Below, in pieces: positions 5,448-64,000 of a stretch of 64,000 bases of DNA. The notes under the pieces were generated by a model. That model worked only from the letters and a program-made list of their open reading frames with translations, was not told the DNA's origin and made no database searches. Position 1 is the first letter of the stretch, and each line of letters begins with the position of its first letter. The position numbers were made by a program, and so were the translations under genes. Origin of the DNA: an uncultured Clostridia bacterium (lineage in GTDB: Bacteria > Bacillota > Clostridia > TANB77 > CAG-508); assembly GCA_948852945.1 (NCBI GenBank), contig CAQPBJ010000008.1, forward strand, positions 7,470-71,469, in the 5' to 3' direction.

Positions 5448-5452
5448 TATTG

Positions 5453-5709
5453 TTGTCAATGGGAACGTTCTTTTTTGACAATTAAAATAATTATATATAA
5501 ATAAAATAAGATATAGTTTTTAAAATTTTTCTCTTCGCAATCTCCGAATAAAAAACTCCGTTTTTATATTGTAGATTGCTCAAATTCGCACTTCACGAAA
5601 TTTCATTTCGTTTCGTTTAGTCGTTAGCGCAATTTTAAAACACTATATCTTATTTTATTTATCTTTGCTAATGTTTCATAGTTGTCAAAAAGAACGTCCC
5701 CATAGACAA
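5453..5709 (+). repeat. nested-palindrome intergenic element, copy A (conserved core about 5527-5636)
   Basis: Outer arms 5453-5481 / 5682-5709. Middle arms aaataaaataagatatag... / ...ctatatcttattttattt. The core is shared with copies at 35.5 kb and 63.3 kb. Confidence 0.85.
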
Positions 5710-5713
5710 CATT

Positions 5714-28027: not shown

Positions 28028-28106
28028 AAATTTTCCTCCTTTATAACACTTAATTTATATCAAATAACAAAAAAAATAGCAATATAAAATTTTACTCTTT
28101 TTATAT

Positions 28107-28288
28107 AACTTTAAGGGATAATAATAAAAGTATTTTCACTCTTAGGTAAGTAAGTTTAGAAAATTATAAAAAAAATTCATAGAGATACAGGCGAATGGCC
28201 TGAGAGACTCTATGAATTTTTTTATTCAATTTTCTTAATGAAACGCACCGTAGCCGTGAAAATGCTTTTATTATTATCCCTTAAAGTT
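28107..28288. repeat. nested palindrome (33-bp outer arms with an inner 16-bp hairpin)
   Basis: aactttaagggataataataaaagtattttcac (28107-28139) pairs with gtgaaaatgcttttattattatcccttaaagtt (28256-28288), with one mismatch. Inner hairpin aaaaaaattcatagag / ctctatgaattttttt lies at 28168-28223. Confidence 0.8.
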
Positions 28289-28316
28289 AATTTAATATTA
28301 TATAGTTTTTATATTG

Positions 28317-34287: not shown

Positions 34288-34480
34288 ATTTTCCCCCTTA
34301 TAAATACATATTTGATGTGAACAGTATATCATATAAAATATTTTTTTGAATACTTTTTCATTTACATTTTTGTTACTTTTTATTTTCTTTTGTATTACTT
34401 TTAACTTTACTGCATATTTTTAAGGATTTATATGCTATAATGCTATTAATTATTTTTATATGTAAATGGAGATAATACAA

Positions 34481-35464
34481 ATGAATTTAGAAAATACTAA
34501 AGACTTAAAACTCTTCTTTTCAGAGGAAAATCTAGAATTTTTAAAAAATATTAATACTGAATTATCGAAAATCGAAAATTTAATTGAAAAAGGTCAAATC
34601 AAAGAAGAAAAATACTCACTTTTTATTAACGCTCTTACTGCTAAAGACTTCTCTAATACTAATAAAGAATACTTTTTAGATATTCAACATACTTATTCAT
34701 TGATTAAGCAAAATCAAGAGGATTTAAAAAATCTTAAAAATTTTCTTTCTCGTATTAGCACTAAATTACTATCTTTAGTTTTAAATAATTGTCAACCTGA
34801 AGAAACTACTCATTTAATAAATGAAATTAACTCTAATCTAAATCAATATATAGAGTTATTGGAAGAAATCAAAAAATCTTTTGTGGCAAATAACATATCT
34901 ATAAATACAATTGATTCTTATCATTCTACTAAGCTTTTACTTACAACTTTTGAAATGGATTTAGGAGAAAAATTAGATGAAACAATATCTCTTGTTTCAC
35001 CTAATACTACTAATAAAATAGATACTTCTTATTCTGATATTGTTGGAACTACTGAAAATAAAACTCTAATAATATCTGAAAAAGAACAAAAAGTGTATCT
35101 ACCTTATAAAAAATCTGAATTAAAAGCATATATGTCACAATATCCTACATCATATTATTCATATAAAAACGTTATAGAAAAGGAATTTATATTACCACTA
35201 GACTTTTTTATAAGTAATCCTTCTATAGCTAGATTTAGAGAAACTTACAGCTTATATCGTGATCGTGAAGCTTCATCAACATTTGATGCTTTCAAACAGG
35301 CTATAAACCTAGCTTTTAAATCAGAGTTAAATCCTGCAATAATAGCTGCTTGTAAAACAAAAAAACAATTGAATAATTATTTACTTTGTTTATCTGAAAA
35401 TAAACTAGATGATTTTACAGATTTCGAAATACTTTATGATATAAATCCACAAACGGCTAATTAA
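34481..35464 (+). CDS. hypothetical protein
   Basis: The ORF track begins at 34466. The ATG at 34481 has a GGAG 9 nt upstream. Coiled, Asn/Lys-rich sequence with no motif recognised. Confidence 0.55.
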   Translation: MNLENTKDLKLFFSEENLEFLKNINTELSKIENLIEKGQIKEEKYSLFINALTAKDFSNTNKEYFLDIQHTYSLIKQNQEDLKNLKNFLSRISTKLLSLVLNNCQPEETTHLINEINSNLNQYIELLEEIKKSFVANNISINTIDSYHSTKLLLTTFEMDLGEKLDETISLVSPNTTNKIDTSYSDIVGTTENKTLIISEKEQKVYLPYKKSELKAYMSQYPTSYYSYKNVIEKEFILPLDFFISNPSIARFRETYSLYRDREASSTFDAFKQAINLAFKSELNPAIIAACKTKKQLNNYLLCLSENKLDDFTDFEILYDINPQTAN

Positions 35465-35470
35465 TATATT

Positions 35471-35792
35471 AAATACTGCCAGTTCAATGCTCTTTTAGAG
35501 AGTAAGTAAAAAATATTAATTTAAAAAAACATAAAATAATTATAAATAAAATAATGTATAGTTTTCAAAATTTTGCTCTTCGCAATCTCCGAATAAAAAA
35601 CTCCGTTTTTATATTGTAGATTGCTCAAATTCGCACTTCGATAAACTTTGTTTATCTACGTTTGGTCGCTAGCGCAATTTTAAAAACTATACATTATTTT
35701 ATTTATTATTTTCTTTACTTATATTTTTATATTAAAAGGCTATTCTTAATTAAATACTTACTCTCTAAAAGAGCATTGAACTGGCAATATTT
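35471..35792 (+). repeat. nested-palindrome intergenic element, copy B (core about 35574-35681)
   Basis: 38-bp outer arms 35471-35508 / 35755-35792 with one mismatch. Same core as copies A and C. Confidence 0.85.
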
Positions 35793-35798
35793 GTTCTA

Positions 35799-37251
35799 TT
35801 ACAATTTTACATATACTGATGCAGTACCTCCTGAAACTTGAAAAACACCAAAACCTTCTTCATCAATTTCAATTTCTTCTTCTCTATGTCCTAGTGCATC
35901 AACAAATTTTTCACCAGCAAAATTTGTTCCAACATACATTCTCTTACAGCCATCATATTTATCAGAAATTATTACAGCTAAACCAGACTTATTATGTTCC
36001 TCATTTCCAAGTCTAGTAAAGCCAACTATATTATAATCATCAAAATAATCAACTTGTTCTCCATAAGCCTTATCTTTTCTAAGAAGTAATAATGTTTTTA
36101 AACTTTCCATTGGTTCTATCCCATCATGTTCTATTCCATAATAATCACCATAAAAAACACAAGGATATCCTTCTTTTCTCAAAAGAATTATTGAATACGC
36201 AATCTCTTTAAACCACATAGGAATCCATGATTCAAGAGCTTGTCCGTGGTTGAGTATCATGATTATCTACAAAAGTAACTGCTCTGCCCCAATTTTCTTT
36301 TAGCAATGTATTATCTAATATTTTAGACATGTCATATTCTCCATTTGAATTAGCCGCATGATAAAAATTATAATGTAATGGTACATCAAATAAAGACATT
36401 CCTCCTTCGGTCATATCAATGTATTTTTTTAATTCATTTATATTAGCATTCCAATATTCACCAACACAAAATAGCTCCCTAGTAGATTTTTCTCTCATTT
36501 GTTTTACAAACTTTTTCATAAATTCTGCATCTATATGTTTAACAGCATCAAATCTTAATCCATCTACATCTGTCATTTCTAAATACCATTTTCCCCATTT
36601 AATGCATTCATCTACTACTTCTTGATTATCAAAATCTATATCTGCTCCCATTAAATAATCAAAATTTCCATGTTCTCCATCAACATTCATTTGCCATGTT
36701 TTATTTTTTAATTTATATAAAGCAACTTCTTTAGTTCTCGAATTATAGTCTATTCCTGTAAAATGTGTCCAATTCCATTCAAAATCTGAATATTTATGAT
36801 CTCTTCCTGGAAAAGTAAACTTAGTCCATACTTCAACAGTTTCTTCTTCTCCGTTTTCTTGAACTCTATTTTCCCAATCACACTTAACAGCTTTAATAGT
36901 TTGTAATTTATCAGCACCCATTTTATGATTTAACACAACATCAGCATACACATCAATTCCTTGTTGCTGAAGTGCTTTAATAGCTAATAAATATTCATCT
37001 TTAGTTCCATATTTAGTAGCTATTGATCCTTTTTGCTCAAACTCTCCTAAATCATATAAATCGTATACCCCATATCCAACTTCTTTTTCTCCTCCACATC
37101 CTTTATATGCTGGTGGTAGCCAAATGGCAGTAATACCATATTTAGCGATATCTTCAACTCTTTTACCAACTGTATTCCACAAATTTTTATTGCAATTTAA
37201 ATACCATTCAAAATATTGCATCATTACTCCATTGATTTCTTTGTTCATCAT
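35799..37251 (-). pseudogene. cytoplasmic GH13 alpha-amylase, split by a 1-nt insertion
   Basis: Motifs GITAIWLPPAYKG, DVVLNHK, GLRFDAVKHI and FVDNHDTQP, then R-T-S-S-stop. The other frame continues GQALESW...GYPCVFYGDYYG. An extra base near 36246 causes the shift. Confidence 0.8.
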
Positions 37252-39348: not shown

Positions 39349-39392
39349 TTTATCTCCTATTTATATTTTTCCTGTCATCAGGCTATAAAAAC

Positions 39393-39496
39393 AAACAAGT
39401 ATTGCTAGGCACAAAGATAATTAATATTACGAGGCGTACTCTTGTACGTCGCAGTAATTTAATTATCTTTGTAACAACGCAAGACGCCGTTTATTT

Positions 39497-39498
<2 letters not shown>
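39393..39498 (-). repeat. 106-nt hairpin repeat, copy 1 (3' of ligA)
   Basis: 98 of 106 positions match 41661-41766. The long stem is caaagataattaa.attac / gtaatttaattatctttg. Confidence 0.8.
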
Positions 39499-41524
<2,026 letters not shown>

Positions 41525-41660
41525 TCATAATAATTTTTAAAATTTATTTTAATCTAATTAATCTTAGCACTTTATAAAAGTAAAAAGAAAAAACTAACAC
41601 AAAATTAAAAGAAGTAAATTAACTTTTCTTAACTTACTTTCTCTATCAAAAAAGGAAAAG

Positions 41661-41766
41661 AAACAAGTATTGCTAGGCGCAAAGATAATTAATATTACGA
41701 GGTGTACAATTGTACTCCGCAGTAATTTAATTATCTTTGCAACAACGCAAGACGCAGTTTATTTTT
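41661..41766 (-). repeat. 106-nt hairpin repeat, copy 2 (3' of pgsA)
   Basis: See copy 1. The pgsA stop codon (41759-41761) lies inside the repeat. Confidence 0.8.
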
Positions 41767-46286: not shown

Positions 46287-46362
46287 TTGCGACTGTAAAG
46301 TACTCTAATATATATAATCATTAATCTAAAAGAATTTACGCCATTATAGCTCAGTTGGTAGA
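46287..46362 (+). repeat. duplicated copy of the tRNA-Thr upstream region plus the first 23 nt of the tRNA
   Basis: 46287-46362 is nearly identical to 46424-46499, offset by 137 bp. It ends inside the D-arm (gccattatagctcagttggtaga). Confidence 0.8.
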
Positions 46363-46476
46363 TGCTGGAGTTGTTCGAACGAAGTGAGTTACAAATCCAG
46401 TATGCGAAACGCAGTGTAGCTGCTTGCGACTGTAAAGTACTCTAATGTATATAATCATTAATCTAAAAGAAACCAC

Positions 46477-46552
46477 GCCATTATAGCTCAGTTGGTAGAG
46501 CAACAGATTCGTAACCTGTAGGCCGGCAGTTCAATTCTGCCTAATGGCTCCA
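46477..46552 (+). tRNA. tRNA-Thr (anticodon CGT), encoded CCA
   Basis: Acceptor gccatta pairs with taatggc. D-arm is gctc agttggta gagc. The anticodon loop is ttcgtaa and the T-arm is ggcag ttcaatt ctgcc. Confidence 0.88.
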
Positions 46553-46592: not shown

Positions 46593-48689
46593 TTAATGTC
46601 TACCATGCATTTTATTAATTTTTTTCAAAGTACGTGCTTTTCTCATTTTAGAAATTTGTCCAGCTACTGAACCTGCAGCCTTCGCTTTTGTAATCTCTAT
46701 AGCACCTAATGATACAACAGTTGTTACTCCAACCCCAGCTGTTACTACTGCTGCTGTGTTACCTTTACTTTCTTCAGTTGCAACACCTTGATTTTTTTTC
46801 ACATTATTAATTTCTTCAATACCTGATTTTACATTTCTATCATTTGCAACATCTTCAACAACAGGAGTTTCAGGTTCTTTTTCTTCTAATAATGGTAAAA
46901 TAGCAGTTCCTTGTTTAACTACTTTTTCACAATCTTTACAATATAAGTCTCCTGTATATCCACCTATTTCTCCATTTACTTCTGTTGCATTTCTTAATTC
47001 TACATTAAGATGATATTCTTTATCAATTTCTCCATATTCTTCATTACAAACTTCGCATTTTGCTTTGCTTGAACATGTTGCTTTACCACCTTTATGACCC
47101 AAAGCAGGAATTACTCTTCCTAATTCCACTATTCCTTTACATTCTTTACAATATTTAATTCCTGTAAATCCTTTAACTGTACATGTTGGTGCTATATAGT
47201 CTTTTACATCTGTATCACCAGTATGAACAGAGCTTACTTCTCCATAACTTACATTACAAACTTCGCATTTTGCTTTGCTTGAACATGTTGCTGGAGTACC
47301 TCTATGTTCTTCTTTTACAGTATAACCGCAAACTGTACATCTTTTTATATGGTATAATTCATCTGTTTCATATTCTTCAGTATATTGATGTACATCTTCG
47401 ATACAATTTCCACAATCTAAACATTTTTTAGAATGATGTTCACCATCTGTTTCAAATTCTTCTGCATATCTATGTGGAAGTAATGCTATTTCATTTCCAT
47501 TTTCAACTAAAGCTTCGCAATGTGTACAATATATATCACCAGTATATCCACTTTCTGTACATGTTGCATTCTTTGAATTTCTTACTTCTGTATTAGTATG
47601 AGGGCAATAAATTTCAAAGTTTATTGTATTTTTTCCTATATATTCCCCTTTACCAGTTATAGTAATTGTGGCTGTACCAACTTCAACATTATTTTCATAA
47701 CTAACATCATATTGATCTGGTGAAACAGTTTTTCCTCTTGCTGATACTACTGTTACATCAGGCTTCTTTTCTGTTCCATCATAAGCACATCTACTTTCAC
47801 TTAATGTAATAACAGATCCTTCTACTGTTTTCTCTAATACCTTTATAGGTATTAAAATAACCTCATTACCTACAATTGCTTTTAAATTTGTTGTTCCTAC
47901 CATTAAAGGTACAATTTTATTTCCTACAATTTTAGCAACTCTTCTATTTTCTATGCTCCAACTATATGGAATTATGACATTTTTATTTCCACCAAATCCA
48001 TTTTGAACTAATATTGTAGTTTCTAATGTTGGTAGCTCTGCTTCTTCTCCAATTTCTAGGTCAAATTCAGATTTTGATACAGTATTTTTCATACTAGTTA
48101 TTTTACTAGAATCAACAAATACATTTCTGTTATCATATCTGTCTAATGGATTTGTTACACATCTATCAGTTGATACTCCAAACTCTTGTACCCAGTAATC
48201 TACACCATTATAAGTAACATGTGCTATACCTACTGAAATATATCTTCCATTAAGCATATTTTTTCTAGTTACATTATTTAAATATTCTTCAGCTGTTCCT
48301 TTCCACTCATTAAAAGCTCCTTCTGAATTCTTACCATAACCTACAAGTATATTCTCACAGTAACTTCTTACTCCATGATAAGTAACAGAATTATACCATT
48401 GACCATTTGGTCTTGTATGAGAATATGAAATAGCTATTTCAGCAGCTCTTTGCATAGCTATTTGTTCCAAATCATAACTATAAACAAGTGATCTTATATT
48501 TTCTTCTGTTCTTAAATTATTTATCATCTTTAGCATGTTTCTCGCATCTGATTGCCCATATTTTACACTTACAGTAACTTGATATTCTCTGTTATTTATT
48601 GCATATGTAGAACTAATAAATAGATTTAATAACATCATACTTAATATTACTATAAGTATCATAAGGCTAACTATTTTTTGTCTGTTCAC
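46593..48689 (-). CDS. surface protein with a CAP/SCP domain, a Big_2-like domain, Cys/His-rich repeat modules and a C-terminal hydrophobic segment
   Basis: Signal peptide. A CAP-like region (YSHTRPNG...ENILVGYG). A Big_2-like region SWSIENRRVAKIVGNKIVPLMVGTTNL. Repeated TC-..GYTGD.YC..C.......IP.LGH and ATCSSKAKCEVCN modules. Confidence 0.7.
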   Translation of the reverse strand: MNRQKIVSLMILIVILSMMLLNLFISSTYAINNREYQVTVSVKYGQSDARNMLKMINNLRTEENIRSLVYSYDLEQIAMQRAAEIAISYSHTRPNGQWYNSVTYHGVRSYCENILVGYGKNSEGAFNEWKGTAEEYLNNVTRKNMLNGRYISVGIAHVTYNGVDYWVQEFGVSTDRCVTNPLDRYDNRNVFVDSSKITSMKNTVSKSEFDLEIGEEAELPTLETTILVQNGFGGNKNVIIPYSWSIENRRVAKIVGNKIVPLMVGTTNLKAIVGNEVILIPIKVLEKTVEGSVITLSESRCAYDGTEKKPDVTVVSARGKTVSPDQYDVSYENNVEVGTATITITGKGEYIGKNTINFEIYCPHTNTEVRNSKNATCTESGYTGDIYCTHCEALVENGNEIALLPHRYAEEFETDGEHHSKKCLDCGNCIEDVHQYTEEYETDELYHIKRCTVCGYTVKEEHRGTPATCSSKAKCEVCNVSYGEVSSVHTGDTDVKDYIAPTCTVKGFTGIKYCKECKGIVELGRVIPALGHKGGKATCSSKAKCEVCNEEYGEIDKEYHLNVELRNATEVNGEIGGYTGDLYCKDCEKVVKQGTAILPLLEEKEPETPVVEDVANDRNVKSGIEEINNVKKNQGVATEESKGNTAAVVTAGVGVTTVVSLGAIEITKAKAAGSVAGQISKMRKARTLKKINKMHGRH

Positions 48690-63188: not shown

Positions 63189-63454
63189 AATTGTCAGTGG
63201 AGACGTCCTTTTTTGACAATTTATAAAAATAATTCTATATATAAATAAAATAAGATATAATTTTTAAAATTGCGCTAGCGACCAAACGAAAGCAAACTTT
63301 GTTTGCTGAAGTGCGAATTTGAGCAATCTACAATATAAAAACGGAGTTTTTTATTCGGAGATTGCGAAGAGCAAAATTTTGAAAATTATATCTTATTTTA
63401 TTTATTCTATTTTTGTTTGGTAATTGTCAAAAAAGGACGTCTCCACTGACAATT
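63189..63454 (-). repeat. nested-palindrome intergenic element, copy C (core about 63267-63376, inverted relative to A and B)
   Basis: 33-bp outer arms 63189-63221 / 63422-63454 are perfectly complementary. The core is the reverse complement of the cores in copies A and B. Confidence 0.85.
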
Positions 63455-64000
63455 ATTTTACCAATTTATAATATACTTTTTTGCCTTTTCTAATTATTGC
63501 ATATCCATTTGAAAAATCTTCTTCTTTTAAGGTATATCCAATATCAGAAATTTTCTCATCATTTAATGTAATAGCTCCTTGCATAATTAATGTTTTAGCT
63601 TGTCCTTTTGATGGAGCCATTCCTATATCTACAATTACCTGTACAATAGGTATATTTACTTCTGTAGTTTTAGCTTCCATTGCATCAACATTTCCATTAC
63701 CTGCAAACATAGCATTTGTAGCTTCTTCTGCTTTTTTAGCTTCATCTTCTCCATGCACTAATTTAGTAATTTCAAATGCAGCTACCTTTTTAGCTTCATT
63801 AATACGTTCATCTTTATATTTAGTCATTTCTTCAATTTCTTCTGGATCAATAAATGTTAATAATTTCATAACATTTTCTATATCTTCATCAGCCACATTT
63901 CTCCAGTATTGGTAAAATTCATATGGTGATGTTTTTTCTGAATTTAACCATAATGCACCTTTTTCTGTTTTACCCATTTTCTTACCTTCTTTTGTTGTAA
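63453..64000 (-). CDS. tyrS: tyrosine--tRNA ligase, C-terminal part (continues past the window edge)
   Basis: GKTEKGALWLNSEKTSPYEFYQYWRNV and a C-terminal S4-like domain. Confidence 0.85.
   Translation of the reverse strand, partial: TTKEGKKMGKTEKGALWLNSEKTSPYEFYQYWRNVADEDIENVMKLLTFIDPEEIEEMTKYKDERINEAKKVAAFEITKLVHGEDEAKKAEEATNAMFAGNGNVDAMEAKTTEVNIPIVQVIVDIGMAPSKGQAKTLIMQGAITLNDEKISDIGYTLKEEDFSNGYAIIRKGKKVYYKLVK

What the first reader, a model, noticed from the sequence alone, without database searches (positions are those of the whole stretch)
35471..35792. Copy B of the nested element carries unrelated 38-bp outer arms
The core and middle arms match copies A and C. The outermost inverted repeat (aaatactgccagttcaatgctcttttagagagtaagta at 35471-35508, paired with 35755-35792, one mismatch) shares no similarity with the ttgtca...tgacaa arms of A and C. 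The element again fills the whole gap between convergent genes (stops at 35462-35464 and 35799-35801). One reading is that a conserved inner unit sits inside different pre-existing terminator hairpins. Another is that the element is modular.
Basis: seen in the sequence. Interest (0 to 1): 0.6.

Follow-up and report, generated by a model that had tools for sequence, protein, structure and literature searches.

The report
Hairpin-tip repeat inside unique outer stem
Copy B is one of about fifty copies of a small non-coding repeat that sits at the tip of DNA hairpins just behind genes in one mouse-gut Clostridium. Its odd 38-base outer arms are real and found nowhere else, which fits a family whose conserved centre lodges inside whatever hairpin is present rather than carrying fixed arms.

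Summary
The segments 35471-35508 and 35755-35792 form a 38-nt inverted repeat with one mismatch. It encloses the same head and inner arms as copies A and C, fills the gap between two convergent stop codons, and is not significantly similar to the TGTCA...TGACA arms.

Copy B belongs to a family of about 50 copies in this genome (47 full). Each copy has a conserved head of about 105 nt with two hairpins, set on a near-perfect stem of about 31 bp whose distal sequence differs between loci. Every copy is intergenic and lies next to a stop codon.

All five sites I could compare with 75-96% relatives lack the element there and mostly carry a plain terminator. At one site the distal arms are demonstrably the two halves of the ancestral terminator stem, so the head went in at the hairpin tip. 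At another site an outer arm is an inverted copy of ancestral flank.

The A/C-type arms are an independent, REPIN-like doublet family with 61 copies in a congener that has no head.

B's 38-mer occurs nowhere else, and four relatives have other, simple terminators at B's site. So it is neither an ancestral terminator nor a recurring module. It is most likely a lineage-specific hairpin that the inner unit entered. The mobilising enzyme is unknown.

The parts
35462..35464 (+). Stop codon (TAA) of the upstream 332-aa gene
   Evidence: ORF 34466..35464. Orthologs in relatives were fetched.
35471..35508 (.). Left outer arm, a 38 nt sequence unique to this locus
   Evidence: No other copy in the genome, in 120 family genomes, in JGI metagenome contigs or in IMG/VR.
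35509..35532 (.). Left unpaired linker (24 nt, A-rich)
   Evidence: The corresponding linkers differ in every sister copy.
35533..35571 (.). Left inner (middle) arm, shared with 7 sister copies. The distal part ...ATAAATAAAATAATGTA is followed by TA and then the proximal semi-conserved stem GTTTTCAAAAT.
   Evidence: the repeat finder I2 35533-35577/35671-35715, alignment of sisters, stem analysis, column conservation.
35572..35676 (+). Conserved head (TTTGCTCTTCGC ... GCTAGCGCA). It contains H1 at 35582-35624, the linker CTCAAATTCGCACTTC, and H2 at 35640-35656, which varies in sequence between copies but always pairs.
   Evidence: nhmmer census of 56 hits, 47 full. Covariation. No Rfam family.
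35677..35715 (.). Right inner (middle) arm, the complement of 35533-35571
35716..35754 (.). Right unpaired linker (39 nt, T-rich). Homology with copy A fades at about 35735.
35755..35792 (.). Right outer arm, 38 nt, the complement of 35471-35508 with one mismatch
35799..35801 (-). Stop codon of the downstream convergent gene (C-terminal part of an alpha-amylase)
   Evidence: ORF 35799..36260, Pfam Alpha-amy_C_pro. Relatives have one 482-aa gene.
5450..5710 (+). Copy A. It has the same head and inner arms, enclosed by a TGTCA...TGACA doublet (units at about 5454-5480 and 5683-5710).
   Evidence: The site lacks the element in 87% and 96% relatives.
63190..63455 (-). Copy C. It has the same head and inner arms, enclosed by a TGTCA doublet (units at 63192-63218 and 63425-63451).

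Best explanation
Copy B is a nested structure made of two unrelated layers.

The inner layer runs from about 35533 to 35715. It is a member of a species-specific, non-coding, non-autonomous repeat family. It has a conserved head of about 105 nt and arms of about 34 bp that it shares with seven sister copies.

Members of this family lodge at the tip (centre) of DNA hairpins that lie just behind genes. These hairpins are ordinary bidirectional terminators or the spacers of inverted-repeat doublets. The stem around the head is therefore largely supplied by the site, not by the element.

The 38-nt outer arms are the stem of such a host hairpin. It is a singleton, lineage-specific inverted repeat with a spacer of about 63 nt. 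It arose at this site after the split from the nearest sampled relative and was then entered by the inner unit, just as the sisters entered TGTCA doublets.

The native terminator is gone. The whole 322-nt hairpin, with an A-rich 5' arm and a U-rich 3' arm on both strands, now most likely ends and stabilises the transcripts of both convergent genes.

Shown: the family architecture, element-free sites in relatives, tip insertion at one locus, the independence of the TGTCA doublets, and the uniqueness of the 38-mer.

Inferred: the order of events at B, the terminator role, and a mobilisation mechanism that recognises hairpin structure, possibly on single-stranded DNA.
For: Family and architecture:
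- 47 full and 9 partial heads, all intergenic, next to the upstream gene's stop codon, in either orientation.
- 45 of 47 copies have a near-perfect stem with a length mode of about 31 bp. The distal roughly 21 bp carry no sequence information, and only the proximal roughly 10-15 bp are semi-conserved.
- Pairing holds in 91.5% of cells against 76% or less in shuffles, and 32 of 55 pairs show changes on both sides.

Sites without the element in relatives:
- B's site in the 90% relative (65-nt gap) and in 75-76% relatives (32-nt gaps).
- A's site.
- Three sites on contig C7.
- No head in about 60 kb of near-relative contigs.

Tip insertion shown at C7:48952: the joined flanks align to the relative's terminator with score 22-23, against a null maximum of 15-17.

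TGTCA doublets are independent of the head:
- 61 units in G001, which has no head. Most are convergent doublets with variable spacers.
- One head-less doublet exists in this genome.

The sisters share inner arms but have unalignable linkers, which points to separate entries into different doublets.

The 38-mer occurs only here.

Other singleton long hairpins have been gained in this lineage. One lies at window 28106-28289 and is absent from the relative.

No canonical terminator is left in the gap. Metatranscriptome contigs of the upstream gene end inside the left arms.
Against: - No genome or sample shows the 38-bp hairpin without the inner unit, so its prior existence is inferred by analogy only.
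- The species is near-clonal in public metagenomes. Copy B is identical in four independent studies, so there is no presence/absence variation between strains to exploit.
- Terminators turn over fast in this group. The 95% and 90% relatives already differ at one site, so the lack of homology with relatives is weak evidence either way.
- At C7:54582 an outer arm is an inverted copy of host flank. Outer arms can therefore arise without any pre-existing hairpin.
- Thirteen copies share related 31-bp arms (ATCTTAAT...) at different loci, so whole arms sometimes travel with the head.
- No transposase was found: Y1 and IS630-type are absent, and the IS110-type hit is only sub-threshold. The MAG is 74% complete.
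- The RNA evidence is thin: contigs only, at depth of about 5.
Confidence: 0.5

Rival explanations
1. The 38-nt arms were made in place, with no pre-existing hairpin. During or after insertion of the inner unit the palindrome grew outwards, because one flank was copied in inverted orientation to the other side. Template switching or fold-back synthesis at the hairpin could do this.
For: At C7:54582 the right flank ATATTGTTAGAATACC is ancestral, as it is present in the 90% relative. Inverted copies of it (GGTATTTTAACAATAT and GGTATTCTA) lie at mirror positions inside the extra DNA on the left. Two copies have continuous inverted repeats of about 70 nt. The members of each TGTCA pair are identical to each other but differ between pairs. 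The extended inverted repeat at B reaches both stop codons.
Against: Neither 38-mer arm resembles the sequence next to either stop codon in the 90% relative. The arms are separated from the inner stem by unequal, unpaired linkers of 24 and 39 nt, which simple outward copying would not leave. This architecture mirrors the sisters that sit in independent doublets.
Confidence: 0.25
2. The whole 322-nt structure is one composite or modular mobile element, consisting of outer arms, linkers, inner arms and head. It arrived as a unit from a donor copy that is not in the sampled data.
For: Whole arms do travel in some subfamilies: 13 copies have related ATCTTAAT... arms, and 8 copies share B's inner arms. 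The MAG is only 74% complete. The entire ancestral intergenic region, terminator included, is missing at B, as a replacement would leave it.
Against: The 38-mer occurs once in the genome and nowhere in 120 family genomes, JGI metagenome contigs or IMG/VR. No family member has these arms. Linkers differ among all sisters, which argues against copying of composites.
Confidence: 0.15
3. The copies are not mobile DNA but genes for a structured RNA, or 3'-UTR RNA modules. The stems are free to vary and the junctions are conserved for a protein partner. On this view B's outer arms are simply an extra RNA helix.
For: Every helix covaries and the junction sequences are conserved. Stem mismatches are mostly A.C/C.A, 33 against 11 G.T. 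The head is present in metatranscriptome contigs.
Against: The head's RNA depth relative to flanking genes (25-56x) is below its DNA ratio of about 100x, so it is not an abundant RNA. Copies lie in both orientations relative to the upstream gene, 22 against 10. The A.C hot spot is one inherited imperfect position in the proximal stem. Near relatives have none at the same sites. There is no Rfam match.
Confidence: 0.07

Closest known systems
REP/BIME and REPIN elements (mobilised by RAYT tyrosine transposases), together with IS1397/ISKpn1-type insertion into the loops of such palindromes
   Same: These are dispersed extragenic hairpin-forming repeats. They form inverted doublets whose two halves change together; compensatory changes are reported as common in REPINs (PMC3116915). 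They lie behind genes. From my own knowledge, a second element can land in the loop of a palindromic unit, as IS1397 does; the REPIN paper cites IS1397 but I did not read the IS1397 work. The TGTCA doublets here look REPIN-like.
   Different: In REP/REPIN elements the arms are the conserved, recognised part and the spacer is free. Here the centre is conserved and the arms are free. No RAYT/Y1 transposase was detected. The lodged unit is a 105-nt non-coding head, not an insertion sequence.
[quoted passage not shown]
   Same: SPRITE is a small AT-rich repeat strongly enriched close to the 3' ends of genes. It has a long duplex and a U-rich tract, was proposed to act as a terminator, and is species-restricted. 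Its authors could find no empty site or target duplication.
   Different: SPRITE has a conserved 18-bp stem and no conserved structured head. It has no locus-specific arms or nesting. There is no sequence similarity.
Correia (NEMIS) and ERIC elements, and MITEs in general
   Same: These are non-autonomous elements of 100-300 bp with terminal inverted repeats. They are intergenic, co-transcribed and fold into long hairpins. From my own knowledge, Correia elements and IS630-derived MITEs duplicate a TA target. A TA flanks the inserted unit at C7:48952 and, in many copies, lies at positions -17/-16.
   Different: In MITEs the terminal repeats are conserved across copies. Here only about 10-15 bp next to the head are semi-conserved, and most of the stem is site-derived. 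The target is a hairpin tip rather than a simple sequence. No parental insertion sequence was found.

Membership tests
MITE (miniature inverted-repeat transposable element) | Short, non-coding, multi-copy, and absent from orthologous sites in relatives (evidence of insertion) | tested here: met
   About 50 copies with no ORF. Five orthologous sites lack it in relatives at 75-96% identity.
MITE (miniature inverted-repeat transposable element) | Terminal inverted repeats conserved among copies | tested here: not met
   Only about 10-15 bp next to the head are semi-conserved. The rest of the 31-bp stem, and B's 38-mer, are locus-specific.
MITE (miniature inverted-repeat transposable element) | Direct target-site duplication | tested here: inconclusive
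   There is one clean case: GATA-TA-[unit]-TA-TATC against GATAGTATATC in the relative. T at -17 in 31/47 copies and A at -16 in 26/47. The TA lies in a palindromic, AT-rich context.
MITE (miniature inverted-repeat transposable element) | A related autonomous element or transposase in the genome | tested here: not met
   No ORF-bearing copy. PF01797 and PF13358 are absent, and PF01548 scores below its cut-off. The MAG is only 74% complete.
REP / REPIN | A conserved REP sequence in inverted doublets forming a hairpin with a free spacer | tested here: not met
   This is not met for the head family, where the centre is conserved and the arms are free. It is met for the separate TGTCA units that form the A/C outer arms.
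REP / REPIN | An associated RAYT (Y1 transposase) gene | tested here: not met
   No PF01797 match in G000. The genome is incomplete.
Intrinsic (bidirectional) terminator | A G+C-containing stem-loop followed by a U tract at a gene's 3' end, on both strands | tested here: inconclusive
   The simple scan finds no canonical terminator in 35380-35880. The inner stem is flanked by A-rich sequence on the left and T-rich sequence on the right. Relatives have plain terminators at the same spot. RNA contigs end in the left arms, but depth is low.
Known structured RNA families (Rfam 15) | A match to a covariance model at gathering score | tested here: not met
   There is no hit at gathering score. The best E-values in the locus are 3 or higher.
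Integron attC-like folded recombination site | Lies in a cassette array with conserved R/L boxes at the ends and a variable centre | tested here: not met
   Copies are dispersed singly. The centre is conserved and the ends vary, which is the reverse of attC.

The most novel reading that the evidence does not exclude
The family could be a structure-guided mobile element with no fixed ends. It would recognise the tip of any DNA hairpin, probably on single-stranded DNA, and insert there. It could later be mobilised together with the stem it sits in, so that copies grow like nested dolls. At some sites the palindrome would extend further by copying flank in inverted orientation. On this reading, B's unique 38-bp layer is one such captured or grown shell. 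This would be a transposition mode defined by DNA shape rather than by sequence, carried out by an enzyme not yet identified.
Probability: 0.25. Interest if true: 0.75.

Novelty: new variant of a known kind. Interest (0 to 1): 0.5.

Why it matters
Small hairpin repeats such as REP, REPIN, Correia and SPRITE are common, yet their target choice and spread are poorly understood. This family inverts the usual layout: the centre is conserved and the arms are free.

Comparison with near relatives gives a rare clean before-and-after picture. The head sits exactly at the tip of a former terminator hairpin. Elsewhere an arm is an inverted copy of host flank.

Fifty native terminators or gene ends in a 1.6-Mb genome have been rebuilt in a very short evolutionary time. 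This bears on how transcription ends and how mRNA 3' ends are protected in this organism.

It also matters for annotation. These structures break short-read assemblies at every copy, and they could be mistaken for sRNA genes.

Tried and rejected
- Rfam, at gathering score and at permissive E-values: no family.
- Presence/absence variation between strains: four independent mouse-gut metagenomes carry an identical copy B, with no joint that skips it.
- Abundant small RNA: metatranscriptome depth of the head is below its DNA copy ratio.
- RNA-strand test by G.U-compatible mismatches: inconclusive over whole flanks (65 against 86). The 33:11 bias in the inner stem comes mostly from one inherited position, so I do not use it.
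- Solo arms or empty hairpins in the same genome: none.
- Arms overlapping coding sequence, as a test for inverted duplication: stems abut the stop codons but do not enter genes.
- B's 38-mer as a diverged TGTCA unit: not significant.
- B's arms as descendants of the relative's terminator: not above chance.
- Copy A's middle arm against the 96% relative's terminator: borderline, 22 against a null maximum of 21, in AT-rich sequence. I treat it as suggestive only.
- The 38-mer in JGI metagenome contigs, IMG/VR and 120 family genomes: absent.
- Transposase families Y1, IS630-type DDE and IS110: none convincing.
- Literature search for elements that target terminator hairpins: nothing matching.

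Full report
**Observation.** Window 35465-35798 lies between two convergent stop codons: ORF 34466..35464 on the + strand and ORF 35799..36260 on the - strand. It contains three nested layers.
- An outer inverted repeat, 35471-35508 / 35755-35792, of 38 nt with one mismatch. It can be extended to 47 nt at 91% complementarity.
- A middle inverted repeat, 35533-35577 / 35671-35715.
- A core of about 105 nt that recurs at 5530 and 63342 in the window.

**The family.** The window lies on contig C8 of a 1.64-Mb MAG with 27.7% G+C and 74% completeness. The organism is a mouse-gut Clostridia bacterium.
- A profile search finds 56 head matches, of which 47 are full length.
- The head consists of hairpin H1, a conserved linker, hairpin H2 and a conserved 3' junction. 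H1 exists in two fully compensated stem versions. H2 varies in sequence between copies but always pairs.
- Variants carry extra hairpin modules or lack H1. A diverged subfamily keeps the same plan. No copy holds an ORF.
- Every head sits on a near-perfect stem with a length mode of about 31 bp. Only the 10-15 bp next to the head are semi-conserved. The distal roughly 21 bp carry no sequence information beyond an A-rich 5' arm and a T-rich 3' arm.
- Pairing holds in 91.5% of cells against at most 76% in shuffles.
- Many copies have a further, copy-specific outer inverted repeat. Unrelated outer arms are therefore the rule in this family, not a peculiarity of B.
- All copies are intergenic, next to the upstream gene's stop codon, in either orientation. 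Convergent gaps are enriched.
- Rfam has no matching family.

**Distribution.** The head occurs about 50 times in this genome, twice in one congener (G004), and not in 20 other congeners or other families of the order. An exact-motif scan of about 185,000 species genomes finds it in only two other Clostridium-type MAGs. Their copies again have their own 30-bp arms next to stop codons. About 60 kb of contigs from 75-96% relatives hold no head. A diverged head version forms a four-unit tandem array in congener G021.

**Sites without the element.** The species is near-clonal in public data. Copy B, including both 38-mers, is identical in four independent metagenomes. I therefore fetched contigs of intermediate relatives through the flanking proteins.
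- B's site: the 90% relative has a 65-nt gap with the plain terminator AAAAAATCCCTATGATAT/ATATCATAGGGA...TTTTTT. Two 75-76% relatives have a 32-nt gap with AAAAAGATGAAAGAA/TTCTTTCATCTTTTT. Congener G018 has yet another terminator.
- Homology with the window stops within a few bases of each stop codon. No pair of cut points in B's gap gives similarity to the relative's terminator beyond chance.
- A's site lacks the element in the 87% and 96% relatives.
- Three sites on contig C7 lack it in a 17-kb contig of a 90% relative.

**How arms arise.**
- At C7:48952, joining the G000 flanks after removing the head and its roughly 13-nt proximal stem gives a sequence that aligns to the relative's terminator, with compensated stem changes. 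The score is 22-23, with 0 of 5000 shuffles and 0 of 58 real convergent gaps as good. The insertion is at the central TA. There the distal arms are the two halves of a former terminator stem.
- At C7:54582 the relative has no hairpin. The right flank is ancestral, and inverted copies of it lie within the extra DNA on the left. Outer arms can therefore also be made by inverted duplication of flank.
- At C7:44373 a truncated head lies just after an intact, conserved terminator.

**The A/C-type arms.** The TGTCA...TGACA unit is an independent small repeat.
- Congener G001, which has no head, carries 61 units. Most are convergent inverted doublets 20-90 nt apart, with identical variable segments within a doublet and unrelated spacers between doublets. 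This is REPIN-like behaviour; the REPIN paper reports compensatory changes in REPIN hairpins.
- In the window's genome almost all doublets enclose a head, and one does not.
- B and seven sisters share arms of about 34 bp and the head. The 12-18-nt linkers between those arms and the TGTCA units differ in every sister. This fits separate entries of one inner unit into different doublets better than copying of a composite.

**Copy B.** B has the sisters' inner unit. In place of a TGTCA doublet it has the 38-mers, with linkers of 24 and 39 nt.
- The 38-mer is 37% G+C, lacks A/T tracts and is unlike local terminators.
- It occurs nowhere else in the genome, in 120 family genomes, in JGI metagenome contigs or in IMG/VR.
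- A head-less hairpin with 34-bp arms at window 28106-28289 is likewise absent from a relative. This lineage has therefore gained other singleton long hairpins.

I conclude that the 38-mers are a locus-specific shell and not part of the repeat unit. Most likely they are a lineage-specific hairpin that the inner unit entered (confidence 0.5). Formation in place by inverted duplication (0.25) and arrival as an unsampled composite (0.15) remain open.

**Function and mechanism.**
- No canonical terminator remains in the gap.
- Relatives have one at this site.
- Metatranscriptome contigs of the upstream gene end inside the left arms.
- The inner stem is flanked by A-rich and U-rich tracts.

Together these make a role as a bidirectional terminator and 3'-end hairpin the best inference. 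The head is not an abundant RNA of its own. Preference for hairpin tips suggests recognition of DNA structure, perhaps on single strands. No Y1, IS630-type or convincing IS110-type transposase is present in this incomplete MAG.

**Caveats.**
- Gene calls are crude long-ORF calls.
- The relatives are metagenome contigs.
- The DNA is AT-rich, so short similarities need the shuffle controls I applied.
- Only five sites could be compared.

Earlier notes from this scan on other copies reached similar descriptions. I used them as leads and re-tested their claims here.

Noticed in passing
window 28106-28289: A hairpin with 34-bp arms (TAACTTTAAGGGATAATAATAAAAGTATTTTCAC) encloses an ordinary-looking terminator (AAAAAAAATTCATAGAG...CTCTATGAATTTTTTT) and has no head. 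The orthologous gap in a relative is 128 nt instead of 289 nt and unrelated in sequence, so this is another lineage-specific palindromic insertion.
   Followed up: partly
G001 (e.g. L031-L040; L004 2485-2540): A TGTCAAATGGGACG-N5-TTTTGACA unit family of 61 copies, mostly arranged as convergent inverted doublets. The variable segment is identical within a doublet and the spacers are variable. It looks like an undescribed REPIN-like family. Its mobilising enzyme was not sought.
   Followed up: partly
L024 137-719 (G021:C25): A tandem array of 3.9 units with a 150-nt period. Each unit is a diverged head-like sequence (…GCTGTCGCAGC…TTCAATCGCACTTC…CGTTTGGTCGCTGCGC) with its own paired arms. Weaker paired hits occur in G011 (L023).
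   Followed up: partly
window 36232-36260 (- strand): The alpha-amylase gene downstream of copy B is split into two overlapping ORFs (153 and 346 aa), while relatives have one 482-aa gene. The overlap reads ...CAA CCA CGG ACA..., a C-GGA context like the CGG +1 breaks reported by other agents for this genome.
   Followed up: partly
G000 contig C7:30743-31003 (L050): A sub-threshold IS110/RuvC-like domain hit (26.4 bits) at the start of a 1434-aa open frame. It may be the RuvC domain of a large nuclease, for example a Cas9-like protein. Not examined.
   Followed up: no
window 39388-39498 and 41656-41766; 46287-46362 and 46424-46499; 47028-47096 and 47238-47306: Other direct repeats in the window: a 111-nt pair at 92% identity, a 76-nt pair running into tRNA genes at 95%, and a 69-nt pair at 87%. 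They are not related to the hairpin family.
   Followed up: no
G000 C10:39624, C10:15519, C11:46967, C22:7386, C3:15514, C18:1593: Head variants. One lacks H1 through a deletion between the two TTCGCA direct repeats. Several have two extra hairpins (GTTAATTTAAAAC... and CTAAGACTGTAA...) in place of H2 and the 3' junction. All keep unique perfect arms of about 30 bp.
   Followed up: partly
L043 900-935 vs L041 8763-8804: The terminators at one orthologous site differ completely between a 95% and a 90% relative. One of them uses the last codons of the downstream gene as its right stem. Terminator hairpins therefore turn over very fast in this group.
   Followed up: partly
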